DNA from: Candidatus Thermosaccharophagus yellowstonensis
GTDB lineage: Bacteria > Armatimonadota > Fervidibacteria > Fervidibacterales > Thermosaccharophagaceae
Reading direction: 5' to 3'
NCBI GenBank assembly: GCA_041537945.1
Contig: JBGOEK010000003.1
Coordinates: 11,856 to 75,855, forward strand
DNA: 64,000 nt
How positions within the stretch are numbered: position 1 is the stretch's first letter; each line of letters opens with the position of its first letter. The notes beneath the pieces are model-generated. The model searched no databases, had not been told where the DNA came from, and saw only the letters and a program-made list of their open reading frames with translations. Position numbers and translations under genes: made by a program. Shown here piece after piece: positions 34,878 to 50,124 of this stretch.

Positions 34878-36803
34878 ATGATGGTCAGCGGGAAGACGAC
34901 TTGTGGTTTTTGTGGTTGCGGTTGTGGTTTGTATCTTCTGCATGAGGATGGTAACGCCATTGGAGTGATACCGAGCGATAAAGACATCGTGAACGAGGGC
35001 AGGCTTTGCATACGCGGCTGGCACATCCATCAACCGTTGCGCAACACCGAAAGGATATTACACCCGCTGGTTAAGGGAGAAAGAGCAAGCTATGAGGACG
35101 CTGTCTCTTTCGTTGCTGATGTGTTGAGGAGGTATCCGCCAGAGAGGGTTGGCATCATAGGCTCTGCGAGTGCCACGAATGAGAGTTCATATGTAGTGGC
35201 GAAGTTTGCGAGGGCTGTCATCCGCACTAACAATGTTGACTTTCCGGGGCGCTCGAGGGTTACGCAAACACTTTTCCAGTTGCTTTCATCTCAAGAGGGC
35301 GCATCGGTGCTTTGCTCATTTGAAGATTTGGCGGAGGCTGATGTTTTGTTTTGCATCGGTATCGGGGAATCGGATCGCTACCCTCAAGTCACAGCTCGCA
35401 TATTCAAAGCGGTCGTAGAAGATGGCAGGCAACTGCTCCTGATTGATACATGGCAATCAGATTTCGCCCCGTATGCCTCTTTGTATCTTTCGCCAAAGCC
35501 TTTCTCTGATGAGTTTCTTCTCAGGGCGTTATCAAAAGCGCTTGACGGAAGCATACCGATGCCTTTCAGTAGTGAGCAGGTGCGCTCCATAACTGGCTTG
35601 AGCGATGAGCAAATAATGGCTGCAGCTGATTTGCTCAGCAGTGGCAGGCGAGTGGTCGCAATCTACGATACAGCATCATTAATCCACATACGCTCGCCTC
35701 ATTGCATGAATGAGCTTCTAAGGCTTTTGAGGGTGCTCAAGGGGATGGGCGCTGAGTGGTGTCGTATCCTGCCGATGCTCGAAAGGTGTAACACAGCCGG
35801 TGCTTTGCGCATGGGCGTAGCGCCAGATCTGCTCCCCGCGTTCAAGTGGGTGACGGATGCGGATGCGGTTCAAAAGACATGCTCAATTTGGGGTGTTGAT
35901 AAGCTACCACGAAACAAGGGCATGAACTTCAACCAAATGCTCATGGCAGCTGAGAGGAAGGAAATCAGCGCTCTCATCATCATCGGCGATGACATACTAA
36001 CCGATTATCCAGACCATGAACTCTTGAAGAGCGCTTTGAGCAACCTTGAACTGCTTGTCATGATAACTGCGTATCACTCACCATTGACCGAGGTAGCACA
36101 TTGCGTTTTCCCGAGAGCCATTTGGGGCGAAGTCGATGGCACATGTGTGAACATGGAAGGAAGGGTGTGCAGGTTGGTGAGCGTTTGCGAGCCGAAGGGT
36201 GATGCGAGGGATGAGTGGCAGGTGTTGTGTGATGTGGCGACGAAGCTTGGATACACGATGAGATACTCAAGCTGTGCCGAAATTGAAGATGAGCTAAAGC
36301 GCCTTGTCCCAGAATACGGTGACATCAGATTGGAGAGAGCCAACGCCAAAACATGCTTGCTTCGTGAGACATCCATAACCATCCCAACATACAGCGCACA
36401 TGGTGAGATAAGCCCACCTGCGCTCCCGAGCACTTCTGAGGAGTTTCCTTTCCTTCTCATAACTGAGCGTTATTACTTGCCATGGCATGCTGATTTGCTT
36501 GCGTTACATTCGTCGACGCTTCAACGGGAGTTCAGGTTGCGCTTCACGCCTCATGTTTTCGTCAACTCGGCTGTGGGTAGCTCCATCGGGTTAAGAGATG
36601 GAATGCCAGCCACCATCACCACACCGCATGGGAGTGCTCGTGTCACATCGATATTCAAGGAGGCGATACCATCTGGCATCGCCATCTTGCCCGAGATGTT
36701 CTTCCCACAGCTTCGGCATGTAATTGGGCGAGAGGGTGTGGATGAGCAAACTGGTGCGCCAATCTATCCTGTGGTTGTGGCGAGGTTGGAGCGAACAAGG
36801 TGA
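34878..36803 (+). CDS. FdhF-like molybdopterin-oxidoreductase-family protein lacking the Sec/Cys-His catalytic pair
   Basis: N-terminal 4Fe-4S motif CGFCGCGCG...C(44). GSASATNESSYVVAKFARAVIRTNNVDFPGRSRVTQT aligns by eye with E. coli FdhF [39 protein letters not shown]. 641 aa. Confidence 0.75.
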   Translation: MMVSGKTTCGFCGCGCGLYLLHEDGNAIGVIPSDKDIVNEGRLCIRGWHIHQPLRNTERILHPLVKGERASYEDAVSFVADVLRRYPPERVGIIGSASATNESSYVVAKFARAVIRTNNVDFPGRSRVTQTLFQLLSSQEGASVLCSFEDLAEADVLFCIGIGESDRYPQVTARIFKAVVEDGRQLLLIDTWQSDFAPYASLYLSPKPFSDEFLLRALSKALDGSIPMPFSSEQVRSITGLSDEQIMAAADLLSSGRRVVAIYDTASLIHIRSPHCMNELLRLLRVLKGMGAEWCRILPMLERCNTAGALRMGVAPDLLPAFKWVTDADAVQKTCSIWGVDKLPRNKGMNFNQMLMAAERKEISALIIIGDDILTDYPDHELLKSALSNLELLVMITAYHSPLTEVAHCVFPRAIWGEVDGTCVNMEGRVCRLVSVCEPKGDARDEWQVLCDVATKLGYTMRYSSCAEIEDELKRLVPEYGDIRLERANAKTCLLRETSITIPTYSAHGEISPPALPSTSEEFPFLLITERYYLPWHADLLALHSSTLQREFRLRFTPHVFVNSAVGSSIGLRDGMPATITTPHGSARVTSIFKEAIPSGIAILPEMFFPQLRHVIGREGVDEQTGAPIYPVVVARLERTR

Positions 36804-36839
36804 GTGAAAAATTCACCTCACTCATGGGGGGCGGGGTTC

Positions 36840-37925
36840 ATGGGCACTGTTGAAGTTGGTAGCAAGCTCACGCTCTCGAAGGGGAGGTTGAACGATTTCC
36901 TTCGTTCGCTTGATGCACCCTTAGCAGCCCCAATACGCCTTGAGCATGGCGAAGTGCATTTCGCTGTCAACCCACCGCTTGAACAAATACTTCGTGATGC
37001 TGAGTATGTGAACAGCACGATATCGCCAGTTGCCTTGCTTTTCCCGCAGACCGAAGTTCTCTTCAACTTCAGGCTCAATGGTAAACCACAACTTGAGTTC
37101 CCACCGCCTCCACAACCGTTAATCATCTTCGGCATACGCTCGTGTGATGTAGCAGCGATGCGCTACCTTGAGATGTTTTTCTCGCGCAGCTTCGTTGATA
37201 CACCGTTCTTTGAGAGGGCGAAAGTGACGACACTCATAAGCATCGCATGCCAACGCCCTGGCAAGAACTGTTTTTGCCCATGTTGTGCTGGAGGTCCATT
37301 CCTTGAGGACGGATACGACATACAACTTGTAGACTTCGGCGAGCTGTTCCTTGTTGAGGTTGGCTCAGAGAAAGGGAAGCAGTTGCTCAGCGGGCGCGAG
37401 GGTTTCTTTGAGCTTGCCTCGGAGGAACTCGTTGAGAGGCGAAATAGGCTATACGAGGAGACGCTACAGAAGTTTGAGATAGCTTCTCACATGGGGACGG
37501 GGGTTCGCAAGCTGACATCAAGGTCTGTCTCTGAGGAACTTTGGAAGATGATGGCTTCAAGGTGCATTGAGTGTGGTGGATGCGCTTTCGTTTGCCCGCT
37601 GTGCACATGCTTTGATGTTGTTGACCATAAGCTACCATCCGAAAATGATGGAGCAGTCTGTGGTTGGCGGGAGCGTTGTTGGGATTGTTGCCAGTTCGCT
37701 GGCTACTCAATGGAGGCTGCAGGCGTCAGCCCACGCCCAGATAAACTGAGCAGGTTCAAGAGGCGTTTCTACCACAAGCTCAGCTACTTCTACATGGAGA
37801 TGGATGGCAGGGTTGGTTGTGTTGGTTGTGGAAGGTGCATTCAAGTTTGCTTTGGCGTGGTTGATATGCCAGCGGTCGTCAACACATTGAGGGAGGAAAA
37901 GGTGTTCGGTGTGAGGTTGAGGTGA
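36840..37925 (+). CDS. 4Fe-4S dicluster protein, sulfhydrogenase beta (HydB)/AsrA-like
   Basis: CIECGGCAFVCPLCTCFD and CVGCGRCIQVCF cluster motifs, plus a GIRSCD region. Size and layout resemble HydB/AsrA. Start could be GTG 36804 or ATG 36840. Confidence 0.7.
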   Translation: MGTVEVGSKLTLSKGRLNDFLRSLDAPLAAPIRLEHGEVHFAVNPPLEQILRDAEYVNSTISPVALLFPQTEVLFNFRLNGKPQLEFPPPPQPLIIFGIRSCDVAAMRYLEMFFSRSFVDTPFFERAKVTTLISIACQRPGKNCFCPCCAGGPFLEDGYDIQLVDFGELFLVEVGSEKGKQLLSGREGFFELASEELVERRNRLYEETLQKFEIASHMGTGVRKLTSRSVSEELWKMMASRCIECGGCAFVCPLCTCFDVVDHKLPSENDGAVCGWRERCWDCCQFAGYSMEAAGVSPRPDKLSRFKRRFYHKLSYFYMEMDGRVGCVGCGRCIQVCFGVVDMPAVVNTLREEKVFGVRLR

Positions 37926-37955
37926 CAAGATTGAATTTCGTTGGGAGGGTTTGGT

Positions 37956-38819
37956 ATGCGTGAGCATCTCTATGAGCCAATGCTTGCGCGAATCGTTGAG
38001 GTCACAGATGAGACGCCAGATGTGAAGACATTCACGCTCCAAATCGAGGACGGTGTCATTGATTATCGACCCGGGCAGTTTGCGGAGGTTTCCGTCTTCG
38101 GGGTTGGTGAAGCGCCGTTTGGCATATCATCAAGCCCGACTTGGACAAAGCGCACCGGTTACATTCAAGTGACGGTGAGGGCTGTAGGTAAGGTAACGAG
38201 GGCTCTACATAGCCTCAAGCAAGGCGACTATGTTGGTGTAAGGGCGCCTCTTGGGAATGGCTTCCCAGTGGAGAGGGCGGAGGGCAAGAGGGTGATAATC
38301 GTTGGTGGCGGGATTGGCTTGCCACCACTGCGCTCATTGCTCAACTACATGCTGGACAACAGGGAGAGGTTCGGGAAGATAACGGTGTTATACGGTGCAC
38401 GCACCCCTGCTGATATGGTTTTCAAGCGTGAACTCGCCGAATGGTCTGCTCGCCCTGACCTTGAATATCTCGACACAGTTGATATTGCTGATGAGGAGTG
38501 GCAGAGGTTAGGAAAGAGGGTTGGGGTTGTGACGACTCTGTTCCCGATACTCGATGAGCAAAGCCCGATTGAACCGCACAATACAATCGCATTCATCTGC
38601 GGTCCTCCGATCATGATCCATTTCGTCATCCTTGAGCTTGAGAAACGGAATGTGCCTCCAGAGAACATCATCTCGACGCTTGAGCGCCACATGAAGTGCG
38701 GAGTCGGTAAGTGCGGGCACTGTGCCATAGGGCACAAGTATGTATGTGTTGATGGACCCGTGTTCTCTTGGGCTGAGATGAAAGAGCTTGAGTGGATGAG
38801 CGCAGAGAAGTCAGTTTGA
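37956..38819 (+). CDS. FAD/NAD(P)-binding oxidoreductase with C-terminal 2Fe-2S, sulfhydrogenase gamma (HydG)/AsrB/PyrK-like
   Basis: RPGQFAEVSVFGVGEAPFGISS flavin motif, IIVGGGIGLPPL nucleotide-binding motif, C-terminal CGVGKCGHCAIGHKYVCVDGPVF. Confidence 0.75.
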   Translation: MREHLYEPMLARIVEVTDETPDVKTFTLQIEDGVIDYRPGQFAEVSVFGVGEAPFGISSSPTWTKRTGYIQVTVRAVGKVTRALHSLKQGDYVGVRAPLGNGFPVERAEGKRVIIVGGGIGLPPLRSLLNYMLDNRERFGKITVLYGARTPADMVFKRELAEWSARPDLEYLDTVDIADEEWQRLGKRVGVVTTLFPILDEQSPIEPHNTIAFICGPPIMIHFVILELEKRNVPPENIISTLERHMKCGVGKCGHCAIGHKYVCVDGPVFSWAEMKELEWMSAEKSV

Positions 38820-38839: not shown

Positions 38840-39352
38840 GTGGTTGATGTAGCGATGAACGAGAAGATAGGGATTGAGAGAATTTGCGATGCGCGGTGGC
38901 GTAAGGTCGCAGTAGTGGGTATAGGGAATGAGATGCGTGGTGATGATGCCGTTGGATGTTATGTGGCGAGGAAGCTTGAAGGCATAAGCGGTGCGCTCGT
39001 CATTGATGCAGGCGATGTCCCGGAAAACTACACGCAGTTGTTGCGAGCTTATGAGCCAGATTGCATATTGCTGATTGACGCAGTTGATGTGGGCGCAAAC
39101 GCTGGGTCAATCGTCATCATGCATCGTGAGGAGCTACCACTATCCTTGTCCGTCTCAACTCATGGTATACCGCTAAGGTTGCTCGCCGATTACCTTCACC
39201 GTGAACTTGGTGCTGATGTGATGCTCATCGGCATTCAAGTTGGGACGACTTCATTTGGTGCAACTATGTGCGATGATGTGAAAGAGTCAGCCGATGTGGT
39301 GGCGGAGTTCCTTACAGCTTACTTGAGCTCTACAGGGTGTTCTGACAAATGA
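38840..39352 (+). CDS. hydrogenase maturation endopeptidase (HycI/HyaD family)
   Basis: VAVVGIGNEMRGDDAVGCYVARKL, LLIDAVD and STHGIPL motifs. Start is GTG 38840 or ATG 38855. Confidence 0.8.
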   Translation: MVDVAMNEKIGIERICDARWRKVAVVGIGNEMRGDDAVGCYVARKLEGISGALVIDAGDVPENYTQLLRAYEPDCILLIDAVDVGANAGSIVIMHREELPLSLSVSTHGIPLRLLADYLHRELGADVMLIGIQVGTTSFGATMCDDVKESADVVAEFLTAYLSSTGCSDK

Positions 39353-40320
39353 TGGTGGCTCTTTGCTTCGTCATCTCTGCACTTGTGGCGACGCCCAAAG
39401 TTTCTGCGAAAGAGCTTGGTAAAGCTACAGAGGGGGTGGCTGTTCGCAAGCTCGCAGAGGCGCAAGTCGATTCGCGTCCTGTGCTTGCGGTGCAATTCAT
39501 CGGGAACAAGTTGGCACTGTTGAGGAAGGGCGGAGATGTTGTGGCGTGGGATTTCATCAAAGGTGAGCTCAAACGCATTTTGCAATGCAATGTTAAATCG
39601 TTGCGTGGTGGCACTTTCTCAGGTGATGGAAAGTTGCTCGCATGCATCGGCGCAAGCCAAGTGGTCTCCATCTGGGATTTATTCGCTGGTAAATTGGTTG
39701 CAAAGGTAACGGGACACGGCGGGGAGATAAGGCAGATGGCTTTTTCTCATGATGGGCGGATGCTCGCTATAGCATGCGAAGGCTGTTGCAATATGGAAGG
39801 CGACACACGCATCTGGGATGCGAGGAGCGGAAGGTTGATCAGAAGGTTTAAAGGCGATGCGTTCAGCGTCACCTTCTTGAACGAATGTGAGAGGGTGGCT
39901 ATCGGTGGTGCAAAGGCTGTAGCGATTTATGATGTGAGCGATGGCAAGAAGGTTAAAGAGCTACATGTCGGCATGAAGGTAAGGGGTGTTGGCTACTTGG
40001 AAAAGGGTAAGTTGCTCATATGCGTTTCCGCTGATGGCTTACATGCGTTTGATGTTGCCACTTGGCGCAAGCAAGGGACTGCCAACCTCGGTTTAGTTGA
40101 TGCGGTTGCATTTTCATCAAACGGTTCGCTCATTGCCATCGGCACTTACGGCGAGGTTGTCCTTTTTGATGCTGAGCCGTGGAGAGTCGTTGGAAAGGTG
40201 AGTTGGGGCACACGCCCTGTCACGGCGATTGCGTTCTCACCAGATGGTTCAAAGTTTGCGTTCGGCGATGCCAGCGGTAGGGTCGCTCTGTGGATGGTTG
40301 TGAGTAAACTAAAAAGCTAA
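39349..40320 (+). CDS. WD40 beta-propeller protein with N-terminal signal-like peptide
   Basis: ATGA overlap with the protease stop. N-terminus MMVALCFVISALVATPKVSA. Repeated FSGDGKLLA..SIWDL, FSHDGRMLA..RIWDA, FSSNGSLIA and FSPDGSKFA..VALWMV blades. Confidence 0.75.
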   Translation: MMVALCFVISALVATPKVSAKELGKATEGVAVRKLAEAQVDSRPVLAVQFIGNKLALLRKGGDVVAWDFIKGELKRILQCNVKSLRGGTFSGDGKLLACIGASQVVSIWDLFAGKLVAKVTGHGGEIRQMAFSHDGRMLAIACEGCCNMEGDTRIWDARSGRLIRRFKGDAFSVTFLNECERVAIGGAKAVAIYDVSDGKKVKELHVGMKVRGVGYLEKGKLLICVSADGLHAFDVATWRKQGTANLGLVDAVAFSSNGSLIAIGTYGEVVLFDAEPWRVVGKVSWGTRPVTAIAFSPDGSKFAFGDASGRVALWMVVSKLKS

Positions 40321-40336: not shown

Positions 40337-41869
40337 ATGGTTGATATGGTCACTTGGTGCATCTTGCTGATAGCAGTTCCTGCAATCGGTGGGATAGTTT
40401 GTGCTTTCCTGCCAGACAGGGCTGCGCGCTTCTTTGCCACCGTAGTGTCGTTTGCTACAGCCGTCATAGGCTTATGGCTCATCACCAATTATGGCTCTGA
40501 GGAGAACATAGTTAGCGTTGGTGGGCTTGCATGGATAAGCAAAGTTGCTGGAACGAAAGTTGACCTGTTCGGCTTTCTCATTGATCCGTTGAGCAGTATA
40601 ATGCTTTCGCTGATCGTCGTTATAGGTTTCCTTGTTGTGCTTTACTCAACTGCCTATGTCAGCGCCAACAACAAGGAACATCCAGTAGAGGAGGGAGCTT
40701 CACGCTACTTCTGCTGGATGCTCCTCTTCATTGCGTCAATGGCTGGCGTCGTCACATCTTCGACATTCTTCCAGCTCTTCATCTTTTGGGAATTAACGAC
40801 GCTGTGTTCATGGGCGCTCATCTCGTTTGACTATAACGACCCTGAGGCAGTTCGTGCGGGCTACAAGGCACTTTTGATGACGCATATTGGTGGGCTCTTC
40901 CTCATGACCATGATCGTGTTGTGTTTCGCCTTCACGAAGTCTTTCGGGTTTGACGCCATGAGGAAGCTCACACCGACGATGCAGGTTGCGCTCCTCTCCT
41001 TAGCGTTCATTGGTGCGTGGGCGAAGGCAGCTCAATTCCCATTTTACACTTGGCTTCCCGATGCTATGGTTGCGCCTACCCCTGTCAGTGCATATTTGCA
41101 CGCAGCAGCTATGGTTAAGGCTGGCATATACCTGCCAGCAAGGGTTGTCCTTGCAGCTCGCCCGTTTCTTAAGGCACTGCACCCATCTGCCATCGATACA
41201 GCTGGAATACTCATGGGCACGCTCTCAATCATAACCATCATCATCGGCTGTTACATGTTCTTCTACCAAGATGACTTGAAGCGACTGCTCGCTTTCTCAA
41301 CAATCGTTCACCTTGCTCACATCCTGATGGAATGGGCATGCGGGTCACTCGGGTGCTCAATATGCTATCAGAGTGGGTTGATACACATCATCGCTCACGG
41401 TGTGGGCAAGGGTTTGCTCTTCCTTTCCGTCGGCGCGCTCTCATACTCCACTGGCACAAGGCGCATAAGCCAGCTGAGCGGTGCTGGCTTTAAGATGCCA
41501 CTTGTGGCGGTTAGCTTCCTTATCGGAGCGCTCACCATATCGGGCATACCGCCATTCGCTGGCTTCTGGAGCAAGTTCTACTTCATCTTAGGTGCGATAA
41601 CGCTGGGCAAGTTCGGGATATTGTTTGTCATAGTCGGTCTCATCGATGCCGTCATCAGGTTTGCGTGGTTCATTTATGTTGCGCACAAGGTGTTCGCTGG
41701 TGAGCCATCTGAGATGGTGCGGAGCGCTAAAGGGACTTCGCCAGCGATTAACATAGCTATCGCCATCTTGATCATACTTTGCTTCATCTCAACGCCGTTT
41801 GCGGTGCAGATGTCTGCAACTGCGGTTGGGATCTGCACTGAGGGGACTTGCTCTGTGGTGGCACATTGA
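40337..41869 (+). CDS. antiporter-like membrane subunit (NuoL/HyfD-HyfF type)
   Basis: 510 aa. FIFWELTTLCSWALISF and KAAQFPFYTWLPDAMVAPTPVSAYLHAAAMVKAGIY. Confidence 0.85.
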   Translation: MVDMVTWCILLIAVPAIGGIVCAFLPDRAARFFATVVSFATAVIGLWLITNYGSEENIVSVGGLAWISKVAGTKVDLFGFLIDPLSSIMLSLIVVIGFLVVLYSTAYVSANNKEHPVEEGASRYFCWMLLFIASMAGVVTSSTFFQLFIFWELTTLCSWALISFDYNDPEAVRAGYKALLMTHIGGLFLMTMIVLCFAFTKSFGFDAMRKLTPTMQVALLSLAFIGAWAKAAQFPFYTWLPDAMVAPTPVSAYLHAAAMVKAGIYLPARVVLAARPFLKALHPSAIDTAGILMGTLSIITIIIGCYMFFYQDDLKRLLAFSTIVHLAHILMEWACGSLGCSICYQSGLIHIIAHGVGKGLLFLSVGALSYSTGTRRISQLSGAGFKMPLVAVSFLIGALTISGIPPFAGFWSKFYFILGAITLGKFGILFVIVGLIDAVIRFAWFIYVAHKVFAGEPSEMVRSAKGTSPAINIAIAILIILCFISTPFAVQMSATAVGICTEGTCSVVAH

Positions 41870-41909
41870 AGCCAATTTAAAGCTCGGCTTTTGGGAGGCG
41901 ATAGGTGAG

Positions 41910-43967
41910 ATGCAGATCTCGCAGGAGATGCTTGTGATGATCATCCTCGGAGTTTTTGGCGCTGGTGCTTTCCTTACCGCTGTAACTTCACCGCTTCGTC
42001 GCTTGACAGCGTGGCTTGGGTTCATCTTCGCCTTCTGTGGCTCTTTGCTTTGCCTCGTCGTCGCTACTCGTGCATTTTATGCACCTGCTATCGAGCAAGG
42101 ACATTCTTACCTTCCATTGCCGGTCGTAAATGCGGCGTTCCAAATACAGGTTGATGAGCTTAGCGCTCTCTTCCTCATCATCATCGGCTTGCTCGGCATC
42201 TGCACTTCACTTTACTCTGTTGGCTACATCACACACGACTACTACAAGGAAGAGCACCTTGTCCGCTACTATCCGTTTTTGATGTTCTTCCTCGCTGGCA
42301 TGGTCGGCGTTGTAACCTGCTGGGACATGTTTTACTTCCTCGTCTTCTGGGAAGTGATGACGCTTGCTTCCTATGTGCTCGTCATTTACGAAAAGAGCAA
42401 CCCCATATCGCTTCGTGCCGGCTTGAAGTATTTCGTGATGACGCACATCGGCACTACTGGCATCGTCTGTGGCGTGATTATCGTCTGGCTTTTCTGTCGT
42501 TCGTTTAACTTTGAATCCCTCAAGGTCGGCATGGAAATGCTTTATACGGAACGCCCTTCGTTGCTTCACCTTGTGCTATTGTTGCTTTTTGTTGGCTTCG
42601 CTACGAAGGCTGCACTCTTCCCATTCGGCGACTGGCTCCCTGATGCTCACCCTGCAGCGCCATCCGCTATCAGCTCTTTGCTCTCTGGCGTGATGATAAA
42701 GATGGGTGTCTATGGCATCCTACGCACATTCGTCTGGATGATGCCCTCATCTCACCACCTAAGCACATGGGGTTTTGTTGTAGCGCTGTTTGGCACTGTC
42801 TCGCTTTTCATATGCACTGTAGCTGCTTTAATCCAAAACGATTCAAAACGCATGCTCGCCTACAGCAGTATGGGTCAAATGGGCTATATCTGCTTGGGCA
42901 TAGGAATTGGGATGGGCTTCATGCGCGTCTCGCCGGGTTTAAGCGCGCTCGGCTTCATAGCTGGTTTGTATCACCTGATCAATCATGCGTGTTTCAAAGG
43001 TCTCCTCTTCTTAAACGCTGGCTCAGTTTTGATACGCACTGGCACGCGCAACATGGGCACGCTCGGTGGCTTGTGGCGCTTCATGCCCACAACAGCTTTC
43101 ACAACTCTTATCGCCGCACTCGCGATTTCTGGCGTGCCGCCGATGAACGGGTTTGTGAGCAAGTGGTTGATCTACAATGCTTCCATTATGGGTGGTCTCC
43201 AAGTCCCGATATACCTTGCGTGTTGCATCGCTGCGGTGTTCATCTCCACTGTCACGCTCGCTTATTCTATCAAGCTCATGGGGATATTCATTAGCATGCC
43301 GTCAAAGCTCGTTAGTCAGCTCGAGAAGGAGCTTAGAGAGGTTGACTGGACTATGGTTGTCCCGCAGGTTGTGCTTGCTCTGATATGCATTGCTCTTGGT
43401 CTCTTTCCAAACCTCGTTTTGCCTGTAGTGTATCGTGCAGTGAATGCGTTGCGCCCCGATTTCATGCCGCCGTTTGATTCGCTGTTTGTATGGATGCCTT
43501 TGTCGGTTGGGATAAGCGTTGGCGAGGGAGTCACTGGAGCTTTCTCTCCCCTTGTATACTTGCTTGCGTTCTTGGTTTGTATGCTCATCCCGTTTGCGCT
43601 CTACAAGCTTGCTGGTGCGAAAGTGCGCTACGCATCGCCATGGGCATGTGGGGAGCTCCACAGCAGTGAGGAACTACGCTATCGTGTTGAGAGCTTCTAC
43701 ACGCCCTTCAGGGGTTTCCTTTCGTTCAGGGTGGGTAGGAAGCGCGTGACATCACTTTACCCGACTTTGCCGAAGCCGAGGGCGCCTTGGGTTGCCAAGA
43801 TGCGCATCATCTTTGAAGTTGATAGGCTCTATGAAGCTGTGATTCGTGTGGGCGCGAAGGCTTGCGAATGGTTTAGCACAACGCATGCTGGCATACCACA
43901 GCTTTATGTCCTGTGGATGGCTATCGGCATCCTTTTCGCCATAGCTTTGCTTTACCTTCTTTCGTGA
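41910..43967 (+). CDS. hyfB: hydrogenase-4 component B / HycC-like antiporter subunit with C-terminal extension
   Basis: 685 aa from ATG 41910. FWEVMTLASYVLVIYE and TKAALFPFGDWLPDAHPAAPSAISSLLSGVMIKMGVYGILR. The long C-terminal extension resembles HyfB. The ORF-track start at 41799 overlaps the preceding gene. Confidence 0.85.
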   Translation: MQISQEMLVMIILGVFGAGAFLTAVTSPLRRLTAWLGFIFAFCGSLLCLVVATRAFYAPAIEQGHSYLPLPVVNAAFQIQVDELSALFLIIIGLLGICTSLYSVGYITHDYYKEEHLVRYYPFLMFFLAGMVGVVTCWDMFYFLVFWEVMTLASYVLVIYEKSNPISLRAGLKYFVMTHIGTTGIVCGVIIVWLFCRSFNFESLKVGMEMLYTERPSLLHLVLLLLFVGFATKAALFPFGDWLPDAHPAAPSAISSLLSGVMIKMGVYGILRTFVWMMPSSHHLSTWGFVVALFGTVSLFICTVAALIQNDSKRMLAYSSMGQMGYICLGIGIGMGFMRVSPGLSALGFIAGLYHLINHACFKGLLFLNAGSVLIRTGTRNMGTLGGLWRFMPTTAFTTLIAALAISGVPPMNGFVSKWLIYNASIMGGLQVPIYLACCIAAVFISTVTLAYSIKLMGIFISMPSKLVSQLEKELREVDWTMVVPQVVLALICIALGLFPNLVLPVVYRAVNALRPDFMPPFDSLFVWMPLSVGISVGEGVTGAFSPLVYLLAFLVCMLIPFALYKLAGAKVRYASPWACGELHSSEELRYRVESFYTPFRGFLSFRVGRKRVTSLYPTLPKPRAPWVAKMRIIFEVDRLYEAVIRVGAKACEWFSTTHAGIPQLYVLWMAIGILFAIALLYLLS

Positions 43968-43995: not shown

Positions 43996-45789
43996 ATGAC
44001 TTCTCGTGAGTTAATGCGACGCCTGCGCGAAGGGTTGGGCGAAAAAGTGATTGAGTGCTGGGAACCGAGGGATGGAAGGGTGTTCGTTAAGGTCTCACCG
44101 AGCGACATCGTTACAGCGTGCGACTATGCATTCAACACACTTAAAGCGCGCTACATGACCACATGCGCAACTGATGACAGATGGCGAAATGGCAAGTTCA
44201 CCGTAACGCATTTCTTCTCGCTCGATGCGGACAAGCTTTTCCTCTCCGTGCGTTGCGAAGTTGACCCTGAAAACCCAGTGTTGCCGTCGATCACCCCGCT
44301 AATACCCGGTGCTGAATGGGCTGAGAGGGAGCAACAGGATTTGGTTGGTGTTAAGTTTGATGGTCATCCAGACCCGAGGAGGCTCGTTCTACCCGATGAC
44401 TTCCCGCCAGACTTGCATCCGCTACGAAAGGATTACCCATACAACTATCGCCCTGAGCCTGATATGCGTGGCAAGGTGCCGATGAAAGAGCCACCCGAGG
44501 GAGCAACTGTTGTGGCAGTTGGTCCGTTCTTCCCAGTGCTTGAGGAACCAGCCTACTTCAGGCTTTTCGTCGAGGGTGAGACAATAGTTGGTTGCGACTA
44601 CCGTGGCTTTTATAACCATCGTGGCATTGAGAAACTCGGTGACAGCAAGCTTACATTCAACCAAATTGTTTTCCTCGCCGAAAGGATATGAGGGATATGA
44701 GGCTTCATACACAGCACGGTGTGCTGTGAGGCAACAGAAAACGCTCTCGGAATAAGAGCACCAAGGAGGGCAAGGCTCATAAGGAGCATAATGCTCGAGA
44801 TTGAGCGCATACATAGCCACCTGCTCTGGCTCGGTATAGCTGGGCACATAATCGGGTTTGACACAGTGCTCATGCAAGCTTGGCGGATAAGAGAGCCAGT
44901 CATGTGGCTCGCCGAGTATATCACGGGCAATAGGAAAACTTACGGAATGAACATCGTGGGCGGCGTTAGGCGAGATATAACGAGGGAGAAGCACGAGCGC
45001 ATCCTTGAAGTGATGAAGCGAGTTGAGGAAGAAACTGTTGCAGTCATAAGAGCAGTTGAGGGTGATACGATGCTTCATGTGAGGCTTCGCGGGGTCGGAT
45101 ACCTTTCACCAGAGGATGCGAGAGCAATGTGCGTTGTCGGTCCAACTGCAAGGGGCTCTAACATCGCGATTGATGCGCGTGTTGATCATCCGTATGCTGG
45201 CTACGATGAGCTTGTCCCAGAGAAGAAGGTGCATGATGAGTGCGACATCTGGGCAAGGACACTCGTCAGGCTTGAGGAGACAATCGAATCAGTCAGGCTG
45301 GTTAGGGAGGGCATAAAAGCTCTTCAAGATATGCCCGAGGGCGAGATAGTGCTCAACATAACTGAGGAAGTCCCAGAGGGGCTTGAGGGCATATCCGTTG
45401 TTGAGGCGCCGAGGGGAGAATGCATCCACTATGTCATAACGAGCGCTGAGAACAGACCACACAGGTGGCGTGTGCGAGCACCATCTTACATGAACATACA
45501 CGCATTGCCAGTTATGTTCAAGAACAAGGATGGAGGCATACCATCGGAGCCGTTCAGCAGGGCAAACATCGCTGACATACCGATAATCATAGGCAGTGTT
45601 GACCCTTGCTTCTCGTGCACTGAGAGGGTTGAAGTGGTTGATGTGAAAAAGAAGGAAGTGCGCTTCTACACGAGGAACGAGTTGATCGAGCTCTGCAGGC
45701 TCAAGGCTCAGGAGCTGTTCAATAGGCGCTCAATAACAGTTGGCGAGCTTGGTGGCTCTGCTAAACAACCAATGGAGAGGCAACATTGA
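43996..45789 (+). CDS. hyfG: group-4 [NiFe]-hydrogenase large subunit (NuoC-NuoD fusion, HycE/HyfG-like) with two in-frame TGA codons at the N-terminal Ni-ligand Cys positions
   Basis: One reading frame of 597 sense positions, interrupted only by TGA at 44689-44691 and 44698-44700. The ORF track splits it into 43996-44691 and 44719-45789, which are in the same frame. NuoC part: PGAEWAEREQQDLVGVKFDGHPDPRRLVLPDD. NuoD/HycE part: GPFFPVLEEPAYFRLFVEGE, YNHRGIEKL, LAERI-*-GI-*-GFIHS, LEIERIHSHLLWLG, VEAPRGECIHY. C-terminal motif is DPCFSCTER. Confidence 0.85.
44710..44728 (+). promoter_or_regulatory. SECIS-like RNA hairpin immediately 3' of the two TGA codons
   Basis: CACAGCAC-GGT-GTGCTGTG forms a perfect 8-bp stem (44710-44717 pairing with 44721-44728) with a GGU apical loop. 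It begins 9 nt after the second TGA and 18 nt after the first. Confidence 0.55.
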
Positions 45790-46744: not shown

Positions 46745-46782
46745 GGCTTAAAGCGATTCAACTTTCATAGGGGGGCAACGAC

Positions 46783-47295
46783 ATGATAGGTAGCAAGTTG
46801 AAGGAGCTGATGATTGCGCTTCGTGGTGGCGCTCCAAGACCGCTCGTCGTGACATTACCGTATCCGCTTGGACCGGGCGCCGAAGTGCCAGAAGGCTTCA
46901 GAGGAAAGGTTGAAGTTGATGTTTCAAAGTGCGTCGGGTGTGGTGGCTGTGCGAATGTTTGCCCATCAAGGTGCATACTCATTGAGGACACATCACAACT
47001 ATGGCGCAAGATGACCATAATGCGTGAGAGGTGCACTTACTGCGCACGCTGTCAGGAGGTTTGCCAAGAGAAAGCTATAACACTGACATGTGAGTTTGAG
47101 CTTGCCACAGATGACCCAGCCGACCTCACCGACACATGGGAAGTCTTCATGGCTACATGCTCACGATGTGGGAGATGCTTCAAACCTAAGACAGTCTTGG
47201 ATAAGATGATGGAAGTGGGTTTCAAGCCACCGATGGAGAAGCGTTACGGAGCATATGCTATGTCGCCAGCCAAAGAGGCACTTGAGGACTGTTGA
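46783..47295 (+). CDS. hyfH: 4Fe-4S ferredoxin subunit (HycF/HyfH/NuoI-like)
   Basis: CVGCGGCANVCP and CTYCARCQEVC motifs, plus an extra CSRCGRC. Confidence 0.8.
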   Translation: MIGSKLKELMIALRGGAPRPLVVTLPYPLGPGAEVPEGFRGKVEVDVSKCVGCGGCANVCPSRCILIEDTSQLWRKMTIMRERCTYCARCQEVCQEKAITLTCEFELATDDPADLTDTWEVFMATCSRCGRCFKPKTVLDKMMEVGFKPPMEKRYGAYAMSPAKEALEDC

Positions 47296-47309
47296 GAGGT
47301 GAGCATACC

Positions 47310-47990
47310 ATGCCTGCCATCCAAGGCATAGATGTGCTTGCATTGCTCATGATAGCACATCTTCTTGCATCCCTTGTCGCATCCGAGCTTCGCAACCTGC
47401 GCCTCAGCGCTTGGGCACTCGTTGTCCAAGCATTCTTCTTGGCTTGCATAATAGCGTCATACGGTTTCGTTTGGAACAACCCAACGCTCTTCATCTGGGC
47501 TTCTGTTACAGTGCTGACGAAGGTTATCATCATCCCCGCCCTCTTGCTCCATCACATAAGAGTTACAGGGCTCACTATGGAGATACGCCCTCTGATAGGG
47601 TTGAGGGTTTCGGTTCTGATGAGCGTCTTTTTAGTTGTGGCGCTCTACTGGCTCTTCCGCACTTACATCTACTTCATCGCCCCAACCATAGCAGCAATGA
47701 TGGAGCCAGCCCGCTCAAACTTGGCTATGGCATTCTGCATCTTCTCACTCGGCATGTATGTGCTTATCACGCGCAGGGATGTTGTTAAAGTGGTAGTCGG
47801 GTTCATCCTGCTTGAAAATGGTGCTCATCTGGCTCTCATCACACTCGCACCGACACTCCCAGCGACGACAAAGCTCGGCATATGGACGAATGTTATCATC
47901 GCTGCGTGGTTGCTTATCAAGCTCGCTGAAGGAATTTACAAAGCGCTTGGTGTTGTCGATACTTTGACTCTATCAGAGTTGAAGCGCTGA
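47310..47990 (+). CDS. hyfE: hydrogenase-4 membrane subunit E
   Basis: LFIWASVTVLTKVIIIPALL and GFILLENGAHLALI align by eye with E. coli HyfE LLIWSASAFITKVLLVP and YCLMENGSHLVLA. 226 aa. Confidence 0.8.
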   Translation: MPAIQGIDVLALLMIAHLLASLVASELRNLRLSAWALVVQAFFLACIIASYGFVWNNPTLFIWASVTVLTKVIIIPALLLHHIRVTGLTMEIRPLIGLRVSVLMSVFLVVALYWLFRTYIYFIAPTIAAMMEPARSNLAMAFCIFSLGMYVLITRRDVVKVVVGFILLENGAHLALITLAPTLPATTKLGIWTNVIIAAWLLIKLAEGIYKALGVVDTLTLSELKR

Positions 47991-48048
47991 GGTGGTTTGA
48001 ACAGCACTGCCATAGTGAAGTTGGTTCAAACCAAGCGAGGTGTGAGAG

Positions 48049-49572
48049 ATGGTGGTCGAATCGTTGCTCCCAATACTTGTCTTTGTCATACCGACGGCGT
48101 GTGGCATCATAAGCCTTTCGCTAAGGCGAATAAACTCAATCGTTCATGGGACGATAGCTGTTGCTGGGCTTCTCGGGACGCTTTGCGTTGCGATACTCAT
48201 AACCACGGAAGTCCTGCGGGGGAATGTGCTGACTGCATTCAGCAACACGGTCTATGCTGATGGTCTGAGTGCTTTGATGGAACTGCTCGGCTGTGGTATG
48301 GGCATACTCGTTGCCATATATTCGCTACGCTACATACCAGTTCATGTGGCTCATCGCTCCGATGCACCCCAAAGGTTAAGCACATACTATGGGCTGTTGC
48401 TCCTCTTCCTCGGGATGATGAACTGGACATGCGTGACAAACAACATAGTGTGGCTCTATGTGACGCTTGAGGCAACTACACTTGCAACTGCCTTCTTGGT
48501 CACATTCTACTGGGACAGGCGTTCGCTTGAGGCTGGTTACAAATACCTCATGCTCGTAACCGTCGGTGTCATCTTCTCGCTGTTTGGGCTTGTGCTGATC
48601 TATGCGGGCGCAATTGAACTGCCAGAGATGAAGGGTCGTAATGTGCTCCTCATAACCGAGCTTAGCAGGGTCGGTCCGAAGATATCATACAGCGTTGTTT
48701 TGTTGGCTAACGCTCTTATACTCGCAGGGTTTGGCGCAAAGGCTGGGCTTGTCCCGTTCCACGCTTGGCTTCCCGATGCACACGCAGAAGCACCAGCTCC
48801 AATTAGCGCATTGCTCTCTGGCATCGTGATAAAGGTTGGCGCATACGCGATGGCAAGGACTGTCACCATATTCGCACCACAATACCCTGCGGTTGTCGTC
48901 TTCGTAGCCATCATGGCATCGCTCAGCATGGTCACTGGTATACTCATGGCGCTTGTTCAGGATGACATAAAGCGGATGCTCGCATACTCATCCGTGAGCC
49001 AGATAGGCTATGTTGTTGAGGGGCTCGGGTTTGGAACATACCTTGGCATATACGGTGCTCTGTTCCACTTGATGAACCACACCATCGTTAAGGCGTTGCT
49101 CTTCCTAACCGCCGGTGCTGTAGCGCATGTCACTGGGACGCGCAGGATGAGTGAGCTTGGTGGGCTTGCGCGCCACATGCCTGTGGTTGCAGTTTGCTTC
49201 TTCATTGGCGCCATCGCCATCGGTGGGTTGCCACCGTTCAACATGTTCATGAGCAAGTTCACGCTCTTCATGGCTGCAGCAGATGTGGGGCTCTTGTGGG
49301 CTGCGGTGATAGCCGTATTCACAGGCTTGTTAACTGTTGCTTGCTTCTTGAGGGCTGCAGCGAGGATATTCTGGGGCGCACCATGCAAGGTTATCCAACC
49401 TGCTGCGGTCGCAGCAAACGGTGGTGAAGTGCGTCTCCCAATAACCATGCTCATACCCATGGTCATCCTCGCCATCTTGACCATCGCATTGGGCATCTAC
49501 CCGGGGCTTGTTCATCCGCTACTTGACAGTGCAACTATGTGCATCCTGAAGATACTTCATGTAGGGGTGTGA
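48049..49572 (+). CDS. antiporter-like membrane subunit (HyfD/HyfF, NuoM/N type)
   Basis: 507 aa. LYVTLEATTLATAFLV and GAKAGLVPFHAWLPDAHAEAPAPISALLSGIVIKVGAYAMAR. Confidence 0.85.
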   Translation: MVVESLLPILVFVIPTACGIISLSLRRINSIVHGTIAVAGLLGTLCVAILITTEVLRGNVLTAFSNTVYADGLSALMELLGCGMGILVAIYSLRYIPVHVAHRSDAPQRLSTYYGLLLLFLGMMNWTCVTNNIVWLYVTLEATTLATAFLVTFYWDRRSLEAGYKYLMLVTVGVIFSLFGLVLIYAGAIELPEMKGRNVLLITELSRVGPKISYSVVLLANALILAGFGAKAGLVPFHAWLPDAHAEAPAPISALLSGIVIKVGAYAMARTVTIFAPQYPAVVVFVAIMASLSMVTGILMALVQDDIKRMLAYSSVSQIGYVVEGLGFGTYLGIYGALFHLMNHTIVKALLFLTAGAVAHVTGTRRMSELGGLARHMPVVAVCFFIGAIAIGGLPPFNMFMSKFTLFMAAADVGLLWAAVIAVFTGLLTVACFLRAAARIFWGAPCKVIQPAAVAANGGEVRLPITMLIPMVILAILTIALGIYPGLVHPLLDSATMCILKILHVGV

Positions 49573-49614
49573 TTGAGCTTGTGCCAAGCAACTTGAGCAA
49601 AAGGAGGTATTGGC

Positions 49615-50124
49615 ATGGTTGGATGGTTCAGGAGGCTTTGTGAGAAGGCGTTTCCGAAGGCGTTGTGGGTCTTCCACGCAAACACGGGCGCATGCAACGG
49701 ATGTGACATTGAGGTCATAAATGTGCTCACGCCGTATTATGATGCTGAGCGTTTTGGCATAAGGCTTGTTGGCTCCCCAAGGCATGCCGATGTCATCATC
49801 GTTACAGGTCCTGTTACAAGGCAATCTGCACCAGTCCTTGAACGCCTCATTGATTCAGTTCCGTCGCCAAAGCTCATCCTTGCAGTTGGCTCTTGCCCAA
49901 CTGGTGGCAACATCTGGTTTGACTCATACGCAACTTGTGGTGGTCTATCAAGCGTCATCAAGGGCAAGGACATACCGGTGGTCTATGTTCCCGGATGCCC
50001 ACCTCGCCCAGAGGCAATACTTTACGGTGTGGCTGTAGCGCTCGGTCTGGTCAAAAAGAAAGTGGCAAGCAAGCACATGAGGCAGGAACTGCTCCCACCG
50101 AGACAGGAAGCAAAAGCACATTAG
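49615..50124 (+). CDS. hyfI: [NiFe]-hydrogenase small subunit (HycG/HyfI, NuoB-like)
   Basis: GACNGCDIEV, GSPRHADVIIVTGPVT, GSCPTGGNIW and VPGCPPRPEAI supply the four Cys of the proximal 4Fe-4S cluster. Confidence 0.88.
   Translation: MVGWFRRLCEKAFPKALWVFHANTGACNGCDIEVINVLTPYYDAERFGIRLVGSPRHADVIIVTGPVTRQSAPVLERLIDSVPSPKLILAVGSCPTGGNIWFDSYATCGGLSSVIKGKDIPVVYVPGCPPRPEAILYGVAVALGLVKKKVASKHMRQELLPPRQEAKAH

What the first reader, a model, noticed from the sequence alone, without database searches (positions are those of the whole stretch)
34878..50124. Chimeric 15-kb operon joining a Hyf-type proton-pumping hydrogenase to a sulfhydrogenase-type NAD(P)H module
Fourteen co-directional, tightly spaced genes make up the operon:
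- MopB (FdhF-like)
- HydB/AsrA-like 2x4Fe-4S protein
- HydG/AsrB-like FAD-NAD(P)-2Fe-2S protein
- HycI-type protease
- WD40 protein
- NuoL-like subunit
- HyfB
- HycE/HyfG
- HyfC
- HyfH
- HyfE
- HyfD/F-like subunit
- HyfI

The membrane arm has three antiporter-like subunits plus HyfE, as in E. coli hydrogenase-4. The electron-input side differs from the usual HyfA/FdhF pair. It consists of the beta/gamma diaphorase subunits typical of cytoplasmic group-3b sulfhydrogenases, plus a degenerate MopB protein.

This suggests a complex-I-like, ion-translocating NAD(P)H:H+ oxidoreductase, or the reverse reaction (H2-driven NAD(P)+ reduction), rather than a classic formate hydrogenlyase. No hyp maturation genes, focA or FhlA-type regulator are in the window.
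Basis: inference. Interest (0 to 1): 0.6.

Follow-up and report, generated by a model that had tools for sequence, protein, structure and literature searches.

The report
NAD(P)H-type membrane hydrogenase with dead Fdh
This is a real 13-gene operon for a membrane-bound nickel-iron hydrogenase that carries an NAD(P)H-type flavoprotein pair and an inactive formate-dehydrogenase-like subunit; the type occurs in many bacterial phyla, was described from genome surveys in 2019 and 2026, and has never been tested biochemically.

Summary
Window 34878-50124 (+) carries 13 tightly packed genes:
- MopB
- SHI-beta-like HydB
- SHI-gamma-like HydG
- HycI
- an exported WD40 protein
- HyfD-, HyfB-, HyfC-, HyfH-, HyfE-, HyfF- and HyfI-like subunits
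- a fused NuoC/NuoD [NiFe] large subunit

MopB keeps its four [4Fe-4S] cysteines but lacks all three formate dehydrogenase catalytic residues. There is no HyfA/HycB.

The operon is not a one-off chimera. The same MopB-HydB-HydG-HycI-hydrogenase order occurs in 64 of 80 related loci from at least 12 phyla. Only the two loci that lack HydB/HydG have a competent (Sec) Fdh. All genes are under purifying selection.

The large subunit lies outside E. coli group 4a, in a bacterial clade of HydBG-linked enzymes.

Takano et al. 2026 (PMC13582414) already described exactly this group 4b cluster type. Their description includes the Armatimonadota variants in which both N-terminal Ni-ligand cysteines are TGA, as they are here. 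Matheus Carnevali et al. 2019 had noted the cluster type earlier. This scan has also reported the architecture at least four times on other genomes.

The proposed function, NAD(P)H-linked and ion-coupled H2 turnover, remains inference.

The parts
34802..34817 (+). Sigma-54-type -24/-12 element TGGCAATAGCGTTGCA, about 60 nt before the first ATG
   Evidence: Read. The same element (TGGCAAyrGCGTTGCA) is kept in G001 and SKYB128, while the rest of the intergenic DNA differs. Only a weak RpoN-like match (43 bits, below cut-off) and one activator are found in the genome.
34878..36803 (+). MopB / FdhA-like subunit, catalytically degenerate, with the [4Fe-4S] site retained
   Evidence: It aligns end to end with F420-Fdh FdhA (9T1S). 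It reads NVDFPGRSRV where Fdh reads NVDHCARLUH, and the catalytic Arg is replaced by Leu. Cys9, Cys12, Cys16 and Cys44 are conserved in 56-57 of 57 aligned family members. dN/dS is 0.10-0.13.
36804..37925 (+). HydB / SHI-beta / AsrA-like multi-[4Fe-4S] subunit
   Evidence: 9NEZ_B, 141 bits, cysteine motifs aligned. dN/dS is 0.07.
37941..38819 (+). HydG / SHI-gamma / AsrB-like FAD, NAD(P)H and [2Fe-2S] subunit
   Evidence: 9NEZ_C, 186 bits. dN/dS is 0.04.
38840..39352 (+). HycI-type large-subunit maturation endopeptidase
   Evidence: TIGR00142, 115 bits against a 119-bit cut-off. It is 31% identical to E. coli HycI. It holds the same position in most related loci.
39349..40320 (+). WD40 beta-propeller with a signal-peptide-like N-terminus; a genus-specific insertion
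   Evidence: It is found only in congeners (40-76% identity, dN/dS 0.17-0.28) and in none of the other 79 loci.
40337..41869 (+). HyfD-like antiporter-type membrane subunit
   Evidence: 497 bits, above the cut-off for hydrogenase 4 subunit D. It is 38% identical to E. coli HyfD.
41799..43967 (+). HyfB-like antiporter-type membrane subunit
   Evidence: It is 35% identical to E. coli HyfB.
43996..45789 (+). Fused NuoC/NuoD [NiFe] large subunit. The L1 motif is ERI-TGA-GI-TGA-GFIHS and the L2 motif is DPCFSCTER
   Evidence: E. coli HycE 7Z0S, 411 bits. Two TGA codons are kept in all four congeners. dN/dS is 0.02 before and 0.05 after the TGAs.
44689..44700 (+). The two in-frame TGA codons (44689-44691 and 44698-44700) at both N-terminal Ni-ligand Cys positions
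   Evidence: Relatives in the same order carry TGC or TGT at these positions.
44710..44728 (+). SECIS-like hairpin CACAGCAC-GGU-GUGCUGUG, 9 nt after the second TGA
   Evidence: z = -2.6 to -3.0. It is invariant in four congeners while flanking synonymous sites vary. The Desulfobacteraceae MAG L023 has the same UxxU motif with a compensatory C-G to U-A change in the stem. It matches the group 4b SECIS described in PMC13582414.
45740..46744 (+). HyfC / HycD / NuoH-like membrane subunit
46783..47295 (+). HyfH / HycF-like 2x[4Fe-4S] subunit
47292..47990 (+). HyfE-like membrane subunit
48049..49572 (+). HyfF-like antiporter-type membrane subunit
49615..50124 (+). HyfI / HycG / NuoB-like small subunit
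50152..51075 (+). PhnD-fold lipoprotein-like binding protein 28 nt downstream, possibly co-transcribed
   Evidence: It holds the same position in G001 and G002, and a weak homologue follows HyfI in L040.

Best explanation
The operon encodes a cytoplasm-facing, membrane-bound group 4 [NiFe] hydrogenase of the formate-hydrogenlyase lineage (group 4b in Takano et al. 2026). It has a long Hyf-type membrane arm: three antiporter-like subunits plus HyfC and HyfE.

The formate-oxidising input has been replaced functionally by a sulfhydrogenase-type diaphorase. HydG binds NAD(P)H and FAD and carries a [2Fe-2S] cluster. HydB is the multi-[4Fe-4S] wire and takes the place of the missing HyfA/HycB. Electrons then pass through HyfH and HyfI to the Ni-Fe site.

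The MopB protein is a relic of FdhH. It is kept as a scaffold and [4Fe-4S] carrier, much like the dead MopB domain of NuoG in complex I.

The net reaction is NAD(P)H + H+ <-> NAD(P)+ + H2, coupled to H+ or Na+ movement through the membrane arm. At environmental H2 levels (1-10 Pa) H2 evolution is exergonic and could pump ions. At high H2 the reverse reaction would run.

In this genus both L1 Ni-ligand codons are UGA. They are read through with a downstream SECIS, as selenocysteine or, via the tRNAReC-like tRNA, as cysteine.

What is shown: gene content, cofactor motifs, loss of the Fdh catalytic residues, conservation and purifying selection. What is inferred: subunit contacts, substrate, direction and ion coupling.
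For: - HydB and HydG best match the solved P. furiosus SHI beta and gamma subunits, with aligned cluster cysteines.
- No HyfA/HycB homologue is present, and there is no room for one.
- MopB lacks Sec/Cys140, His141 and Arg333 but keeps the four FS0 cysteines in 56-57 of 57 relatives.
- HydB plus HydG co-occur with a degenerate MopB in every locus where the motif could be read (57 loci). The only two true Sec-Fdh loci lack HydBG.
- MopB evolves about three times faster than HydB, HydG or the large subunit: 63% against 83-90% identity between congeners, and 22-31% against 44-60% across phyla. It is still under purifying selection with dN/dS of 0.10-0.13. This fits a structural role.
- The large subunit lies outside E. 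coli 4a, in a well-supported bacterial clade of HydBG-linked enzymes.
- hypF and hypD are present.
- tRNASec, SelB and a Sec-type SelD are present.
- Takano et al. 2026 (PMC13582414) reached the same NADPH-module reading from AlphaFold models of representatives.
Against: - No biochemical, transcript or protein evidence exists.
- NAD(P)H to H2 is endergonic under standard conditions, so the direction and coupling depend on in-situ H2 levels and nucleotide ratios.
- The strict retention of the MopB [4Fe-4S] cluster, and of the whole 641-residue protein, across phyla could mean a third redox site and not a scaffold.
- Some relatives carry a Cys one position away from the canonical ligand.
- NADH versus NADPH specificity was not determined.
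- selA is missing from this assembly.
Confidence: 0.55

Rival explanations
1. The complex is a three-way electron-bifurcating or confurcating enzyme. The Fe-S network branches to the Ni-Fe site, to HydG (NADP+/NADPH) and to the MopB-like subunit. The MopB-like subunit would bind a still unidentified third substrate or partner such as ferredoxin, so that NAD(P)H and a low-potential donor together drive H2 formation.
For: - Takano et al. 2026 (PMC13582414, read) proposed this from AlphaFold complex models.
- The MopB FS0 cysteines are conserved in 56-57 of 57 relatives.
- MopB is under purifying selection.
Against: - All three Fdh catalytic residues are gone, and the active-site segment is hypervariable across the family.
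- MopB is the fastest-evolving redox subunit.
- No known bifurcating site, such as a second flavin or an HdrA/NfnB/EtfAB-type module, is encoded in the operon.
Confidence: 0.2
2. The HydB/HydG pair works as in AsrAB or in the sulfur-reducing side activity of sulfhydrogenase. It would pass H2-derived electrons to a sulfur compound or another small acceptor, not to NAD(P)+. The complex would then be an H2-uptake respiratory enzyme.
For: HydB and HydG score almost as well against AsrA and AsrB (136 and 207 bits) as against ShyB/ShyC and HydB/HydG.
Against: - No AsrC or siroheme subunit lies in or near the operon.
- HydG keeps complete FAD and NAD-binding domains.
- Group 4 enzymes are typically H2-evolving.
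Confidence: 0.1
3. It is still a formate hydrogenlyase. Formate would be oxidised by the MopB subunit through non-canonical residues, or by the separate Cys-type FdhA encoded on contig C35 docking onto the complex.
For: - A bona fide Fdh-alpha (894 bits, no stop codon) exists elsewhere in the genome.
- The lineage descends from FHL-type enzymes.
Against: - The operon MopB lacks Sec/Cys, His and Arg.
- The C35 Fdh is unlinked.
- No focA or HyfA/HycB is present in the operon.
- The degenerate MopB always travels with HydBG.
Confidence: 0.05
4. The hydrogenase in this genus is a pseudogene, inactivated by two nonsense mutations in the large subunit.
For: There are two in-frame TGA codons. selA is not found in this assembly.
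Against: - Both TGAs sit exactly on Ni-ligand Cys codons and are kept in four species.
- dN/dS downstream of the TGAs is 0.04-0.05.
- The hairpin is conserved, with a compensatory change in another phylum.
- tRNASec, SelB and a Sec-type SelD are present.
- selA is present in two congeners, and its whole region is simply unassembled here.
Confidence: 0.02

Closest known systems
Group 4b [NiFe]/[NiFeSe] hydrogenase gene clusters with a Cys/Sec-less Fdh and SHI-beta/gamma homologues (Takano et al. 2026, Front Microbiol, PMC13582414)
   Same: - Same subunit set: large and small subunits, HyfC- and HyfE-like subunits, several antiporter subunits, an Fdh-like protein without the Mo ligand, and SHI-beta/gamma homologues.
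- Same N-terminal UXXU motif in Armatimonadota.
- Same SECIS, with the conserved G falling in the Thr ACG codon.
- Same co-occurrence with a tRNAReC-like tRNA.
   Different: Nothing essential differs.
- The exported WD40 gene, the downstream PhnD-like gene and the conserved sigma-54-type element are not mentioned in the Results or Discussion of that paper.
- Its supplementary tables were not available, so I could not check whether this exact genome is in its dataset.
'Enigmatic' group 4 hydrogenase cluster of Saganbacteria RX5A (Matheus Carnevali et al. 2019, Nat Commun, PMC6349859)
   Same: Hydrogenase and antiporter-like subunits next to an unclassifiable molybdopterin oxidoreductase plus asrA- and asrB-like genes.
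   Different: That cluster also has a cooF-like gene and was compared to Mbh. It has no Sec codons. Its sequence was not compared here.
E. coli hydrogenase 4 / FHL-2 (HyfABCDEFGHI) and FHL-1 (FdhF-HycBCDEFG, PDB 7Z0S/7Z0T; group 4a)
   Same: One-to-one homologues of HyfB, C, D, E, F, G, H and I at 26-44% identity, a HycI protease, and a fused NuoC/NuoD large subunit with L1 and L2 motifs.
   Different: - No HyfA/HycB, HyfJ/HycH, FocB or HyfR.
- The Fdh partner is catalytically dead, and HydB/HydG have been added.
- The gene order differs.
- The large subunit lies outside the E. coli 4a branch.
- Most subunits score below the NCBIfam equivalog cut-offs.
Pyrococcus furiosus soluble hydrogenase I (SHI, group 3b; PDB 9NEZ)
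   Same: The beta and gamma subunits (Fe-S wire and FAD/NADPH/[2Fe-2S]) are the closest solved relatives of HydB and HydG.
   Different: The catalytic alpha and delta subunits of group 3b are absent. Here the module is attached to a membrane-bound group 4 core.
Respiratory complex I (NuoG C-terminal MopB domain plus NuoEF)
   Same: A complex-I-type membrane arm and Q-module homologues, an NAD(P)H-oxidising flavoprotein module, and a catalytically dead MopB/Fdh-like domain kept as a scaffold. This last point is established knowledge for NuoG. NuoG is also the third-best NCBIfam hit of MopB.
   Different: The flavoprotein here is of the FNR/AsrB type, not NuoF/NuoE. The Ni-Fe site is retained in place of a quinone pocket.

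Membership tests
Classic formate hydrogenlyase (E. coli FHL-1/FHL-2, group 4a) | Catalytically competent FdhH partner (Sec/Cys140, His141, Arg333) | tested here: not met
   MopB has Arg-Val and Leu at these positions.
Classic formate hydrogenlyase (E. coli FHL-1/FHL-2, group 4a) | HycB/HyfA poly-ferredoxin linking Fdh to HycF/HyfH | tested here: not met
   No operon protein hits E. coli HycB or HyfA, and there is no unassigned coding space.
Classic formate hydrogenlyase (E. coli FHL-1/FHL-2, group 4a) | Fused NuoC/NuoD large subunit, NuoB-like small subunit, HycF/HyfH subunit, and HycC/D- or HyfBCDEF-type membrane subunits | tested here: met
Classic formate hydrogenlyase (E. coli FHL-1/FHL-2, group 4a) | Large subunit within the 4a clade | tested here: not met
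   HycE and HyfG form a separate, fully supported branch. The window's protein lies in a bacterial clade (SH-aLRT 100) together with HydBG-linked enzymes. Takano et al. assign these to 4b with HydDB. HydDB itself could not be run here.
Group 4b hydrogenase with dead Fdh plus SHI-beta/gamma (Takano et al. 2026) | Fdh-like subunit lacking the Mo-ligand Cys/Sec, co-encoded with SHI-beta and SHI-gamma homologues and a Hyf/Hyc-like core | tested here: met
   The synteny is conserved in 64 loci.
Group 4 [NiFeSe] hydrogenase, UXXU type (Takano et al. 2026) | In-frame UGA at both Cys positions of the N-terminal CXXC motif, conserved among relatives | tested here: met
Group 4 [NiFeSe] hydrogenase, UXXU type (Takano et al. 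2026) | Downstream SECIS-like stem-loop with G at position 1 or 2 of the apical loop | tested here: met
   The hairpin at 44710-44728 has loop GGU (or CGGUG). It is invariant in congeners and shows a compensatory pair in L023. There is no Rfam hit at gathering score.
Group 4 [NiFeSe] hydrogenase, UXXU type (Takano et al. 2026) | selABCD present in the genome | tested here: inconclusive
   selC, selB and a Sec-type selD are present. selA is absent from this 96%-complete assembly and from G001, but present in G002 and G003. The whole selA region is unassembled in this genome.
Group 4 [NiFeSe] hydrogenase, UXXU type (Takano et al. 2026) | Selenocysteine, and not Cys, actually inserted at the UGA codons | not testable with these tools
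   A 93-nt tRNA(GCA) with a long variable arm and U73, tRNAReC-like, is conserved in all four congeners. Either UGA could therefore be read as Cys.
Group 3b sulfhydrogenase (SHI/SHII) | Group 3 alpha and delta catalytic subunits together with beta and gamma | tested here: not met
   Only beta- and gamma-like subunits are present. The catalytic pair is group 4 / complex-I-like.
Respiratory complex I | NuoE/NuoF flavoprotein and a quinone-reducing NuoD without Ni-Fe ligands | tested here: not met
   There is no NuoE or NuoF in the operon. The L1 and L2 Ni-Fe motifs are present.

The most novel reading that the evidence does not exclude
The complex is a true ion-pumping NAD(P)H:H+ oxidoreductase. 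It would be a living counterpart of the intermediate between formate-hydrogenlyase-type hydrogenases and complex I, with a dead Fdh domain kept as a scaffold as in NuoG.

In this Armatimonadota genus its Ni site would additionally carry two N-terminal seleno-ligands. Their identity (Sec or Cys) could switch with selenium supply through the paired tRNASec and tRNAReC.

A genus-specific exported WD40 protein would act as a periplasmic accessory of the membrane arm.
Probability: 0.25. Interest if true: 0.7.

Novelty: already known. Interest (0 to 1): 0.38.

Why it matters
If the predicted activity is real, this family would be a widespread and unstudied route linking the NAD(P)H pool directly to H2 at the membrane. 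It occurs in anaerobic soil, peat, sediment and bioreactor bacteria of at least 12 phyla. That bears on fermentative redox balance and on environmental H2 budgets.

It also mirrors how complex I is thought to have gained its NADH module. The Sec (or Sec/Cys) coded N-terminal Ni ligands offer a natural experiment on Ni-Fe site chemistry.

None of this is new as a genomic observation. The open question is biochemical.

Tried and rejected
- The Rfam gathering scan of the whole window gave no hit, so there is no curated SECIS or riboswitch family match.
- The sigma-70 promoter and intrinsic terminator scans over the operon found no more sites than shuffled sequence. They give no evidence for or against internal promoters.
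The single-transcript question and expression could not be addressed.
- The supplementary tables of Takano et al. are not held. I could not confirm that this exact genome is in their list.
- The Pfam Sigma54_DBD model found no RpoN. TIGR02395 gave only a sub-threshold match in all four congeners.
- The neighbourhoods of tRNASec and of the tRNAReC-like gene hold housekeeping genes, with no sel or cysS-type partners.
- A Methylocystis preprint that matched the search terms concerns group 4f and a group 3b AsrB-like subunit. It is not this cluster.
- The pseudogene reading was considered and rejected.
- AlphaFold and Foldseek were not used. Single-chain models would not decide the subunit wiring.

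Full report
**1. The observation**

ORF listing and Pfam/NCBIfam scans confirm a co-directional, tightly packed gene set on the + strand from 34878 to 50124:
- MopB (641 aa)
- HydB / SHI-beta / AsrA-like (373 aa)
- HydG / SHI-gamma / AsrB-like (292 aa)
- HycI protease
- a WD40 protein
- HyfD-like and HyfB-like subunits
- a fused NuoC/NuoD large subunit
- HyfC/NuoH-like, HyfH-like, HyfE-like, HyfF-like and HyfI/NuoB-like subunits

Against E. coli K-12 proteins taken from the annotated hyc and hyf loci, each core subunit's best hit is a cognate Hyf or Hyc protein at 26-44% identity. HyfC, HyfH and HyfI score slightly higher against HycD, HycF and HycG. No operon protein resembles HyfA/HycB, HycH/HyfJ or HycA.

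It is one reading frame.

A divergent small membrane-protein gene ends the upstream side. The 121-nt gap before MopB holds a TGGCAATAGCGTTGCA element.

hypF and hypD lie on other contigs. The only sigma-54 activator is on contig C5.

**2. The input module**

HydB and HydG find the solved P. furiosus sulfhydrogenase I beta and gamma chains (9NEZ_B at 141 bits, 9NEZ_C at 186 bits) as their best structural relatives. The Fe-S cysteine motifs align. HydG has complete FAD- and NAD-binding domains and the C-terminal 2Fe-2S motif.

MopB aligns over its full length with F420-dependent FdhA (9T1S) and with HDCR FdhF and E. coli FdhH. Where those enzymes read NVDHCARL-U/C-H, it reads NVDFPGRS-R-V. The catalytic Arg333 equivalent is Leu.

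In a MAFFT alignment of 59 family members, the four cysteines of the N-terminal [4Fe-4S] cluster are conserved in 56-57 of 57 aligned sequences. The active-site segment is hypervariable.

**3. Is it a one-off chimera?**

No. A scan of one genome per species returned 80 loci encoding relatives of the large subunit. tblastn with the window's proteins found HydB and HydG upstream of the hydrogenase genes in 64 of them, and 57 of those 64 also gave a MopB hit. Nearly all have the order MopB-HydB-HydG-HycI-membrane subunits-large subunit-HyfC-HyfH-...-HyfI.

The loci come from these phyla:
- Armatimonadota
- Acidobacteriota
- Spirochaetota
- Verrucomicrobiota
- Planctomycetota
- Gemmatimonadota
- Chloroflexota
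- Thermodesulfobacteriota
- Aminicenantota
- Fibrobacterota
- Bacillota
- Pseudomonadota, including the cultured Chitinibacter tainanensis DSM 15459

Two forms exist:
- A long, Hyf-like form with three antiporter-type subunits and HyfE, as in this window (13 loci).
- A short, Hyc-like form (51 loci).

In all 57 HydBG-linked loci where the MopB motif could be read, it is degenerate. The only two loci with a canonical DHCAR(L/V)-TGA-H Sec-Fdh motif (L094, L100) are also loci that lack HydB and HydG.

Between congeners every gene is under purifying selection. Against G002 the dN/dS values are:
- MopB: 0.13
- HydB: 0.07
- HydG: 0.04
- WD40: 0.21
- other core and membrane subunits: 0.02-0.11

MopB is the fastest-evolving redox subunit.

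**4. Placement of the large subunit**

The closest solved relative is E. coli HycE (7Z0S, 411 bits, 38% identity).

I built a maximum-likelihood tree of 98 large subunits rooted on E. coli HycE and HyfG (quick search, LG+G4). It shows the following:
- The E. coli 4a pair forms its own fully supported branch.
- Archaeal Thermococcus and Desulfurococcales sequences are basal.
- All bacterial sequences form one clade with SH-aLRT 100.
- The window's protein sits inside the 'long-form' HydBG subclade.
- The two true-Fdh loci branch at the unresolved base of the bacterial clade.

HydDB could not be run. Takano et al. 2026 assign these sequences to group 4b.

**5. The two TGA codons**

The L1 motif reads ERI-TGA-GI-TGA-GFIHS. 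The evidence that this is recoding and not decay is as follows:
- All four species of the genus have both TGAs at 89-95% protein identity. Same-order relatives at 57% identity have TGC or TGT.
- A hairpin, CACAGCAC-GGU-GUGCUGUG, starts 9 nt after the second TGA. It is invariant in the congeners while synonymous sites on both sides vary.
- A Desulfobacteraceae MAG (L023), one of the nearest non-congeneric neighbours, has the same UxxU motif. Its stem carries a compensatory C-G to U-A change.
- dN/dS downstream of the TGAs is as low as upstream.
- The genome has tRNASec, SelB and a SelD whose active-site codon is itself TGA.
- selA is not in this assembly or in G001, but it is in G002 and G003. 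Its whole region is unassembled here.

A 93-nt tRNA(GCA) with a long variable arm and U73 is conserved in all four congeners. This fits the tRNAReC (selC*) that Takano et al. report in 5 of 5 Armatimonadota UXXU genomes. Sec versus Cys at each UGA therefore cannot be decided in silico.

**6. Literature**

Takano et al. (Front Microbiol, 3 Sep 2026, PMC13582414) describe the following:
- 47 group 4 [NiFeSe] sequences, including UXXU types from Armatimonadota and Desulfobacterota in group 4b.
- About half of the group 4b clusters have an Fdh lacking the Mo-ligand Cys/Sec and co-occur with SHI-gamma and SHI-beta homologues.
- An NADPH-linked bifurcation/confurcation role, proposed from AlphaFold models.
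- The same SECIS, with the conserved G in the Thr ACG codon.

Matheus Carnevali et al. 2019 (PMC6349859) had already called a group 4 cluster 'enigmatic'. That cluster had an unclassifiable molybdopterin protein plus asrA and asrB.

Earlier reports of this scan describe the same architecture on at least four other genomes.

The finding is therefore a correct reading of a known, uncharacterised enzyme type.

**7. Mechanism (inference)**

The proposed electron path is:
- NAD(P)H donates to FAD and the [2Fe-2S] cluster in HydG.
- Electrons pass to the [4Fe-4S] clusters of HydB, which replaces HyfA/HycB.
- They continue through HyfH and HyfI to the Ni-Fe site.
- MopB acts as an off-path or side-branch [4Fe-4S] scaffold.

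Standard potentials are -320 mV for NAD(P)+/NAD(P)H and -414 mV for H+/H2 at 1 bar. The H+/H2 couple rises to about -300 to -270 mV at 10 to 1 Pa H2. On that basis, H2 evolution from NAD(P)H is exergonic at environmental H2 levels and could drive ion export through the three antiporter-like subunits. At high H2 the reverse reaction would run. This is established thermodynamics applied by inference.

The main rival is the three-way bifurcation model. The remaining rivals are a sulfur or other acceptor, residual FHL activity, and a pseudogene, with the pseudogene least likely.

**8. Local peculiarities**

These features are not covered in the parts of the paper I read (Results and Discussion):
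- The WD40 gene has a signal-peptide-like N-terminus. It is inserted between hycI and hyfD only in this genus.
- A PhnD-fold lipoprotein-like gene follows hyfI in three congeners.
- A sigma-54-type -24/-12 element is conserved in three congeners. Only a weak RpoN candidate is found.

**9. Verdict**

The architecture and conservation are shown, while the activity is not.
- Novelty: already known from genome surveys.
- Interest is moderate, because the enzyme class is widespread and biochemically untouched.

Noticed in passing
window 44689-44728: Both N-terminal Ni-ligand Cys codons of the large subunit are TGA, followed by a conserved SECIS-like hairpin. They are kept in four congeners and in the Desulfobacteraceae MAG L023, which has a compensatory stem change. 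This was already published as the UXXU-type group 4b [NiFeSe] hydrogenase.
   Followed up: yes
G000:C24:12506-12598 (-), in L107: A 93-nt tRNA(GCA) with a long variable arm and a U73 discriminator, tRNAReC/selC*-like. It is 93-96% identical in all four genomes of the genus. It lies next to topA and about 9 kb from hypD and a hypE-like gene. It could read the UGA codons as Cys.
   Followed up: partly
G000:C12:63911-64843 (L109:1531-1533): SelD has TGA at its active-site position (…RASG-U-ASKW…). It is therefore a second UGA-recoded gene in this genome.
   Followed up: partly
G000 whole assembly; G002:C62:4694-6052 (L113): selA is absent from this assembly and from G001 but present in G002 and G003. 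The 4.3-kb G002 selA region has no blastn match at all in G000, which points to an assembly gap and not a specific loss.
   Followed up: partly
window 39349-40320: The WD40 beta-propeller has a signal-peptide-like N-terminus (MMVALCFVISALVATPKVSA|KE). It is translationally overlapped with hycI. It is present only in this genus, and it is the least constrained gene of the operon (dN/dS 0.17-0.28).
   Followed up: partly
window 50152-51075: A PhnD-fold, lipoprotein-like binding protein lies 28 nt after hyfI. It is syntenic in G001 and G002, and a weak homologue follows hyfI in L040. No permease or ATPase genes are nearby.
   Followed up: partly
window 34802-34817: A sigma-54-type element, TGGCAATAGCGTTGCA, is conserved upstream of MopB in G001 and SKYB128 although the flanking DNA diverges. 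Only a sub-threshold RpoN-like ORF (G000:C30:22439-22840) and one activator (C5:131408-131908) were found.
   Followed up: partly
L076 (Chitinibacter tainanensis DSM 15459, NZ_KE386951.1 445925-467571): A cultured betaproteobacterium carries the complete short-form cluster: degenerate MopB, HydB, HydG, HycI and a Hyc-like core. It could serve as an experimental handle for the whole family.
   Followed up: no
G000:C35:6504-8498 (-), L102: A bona fide Cys-type formate dehydrogenase alpha subunit (894 bits, 892-aa frame, no stop codon) is encoded elsewhere in the genome, unlinked to the hydrogenase operon.
   Followed up: no
window 34469-34756 (-): A small divergent ORF (95 aa) encodes a predicted two-helix membrane protein. 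It bounds the operon's promoter region. The overlapping + strand ORF 34494-34868 has no family hit and is probably not a gene.
   Followed up: no
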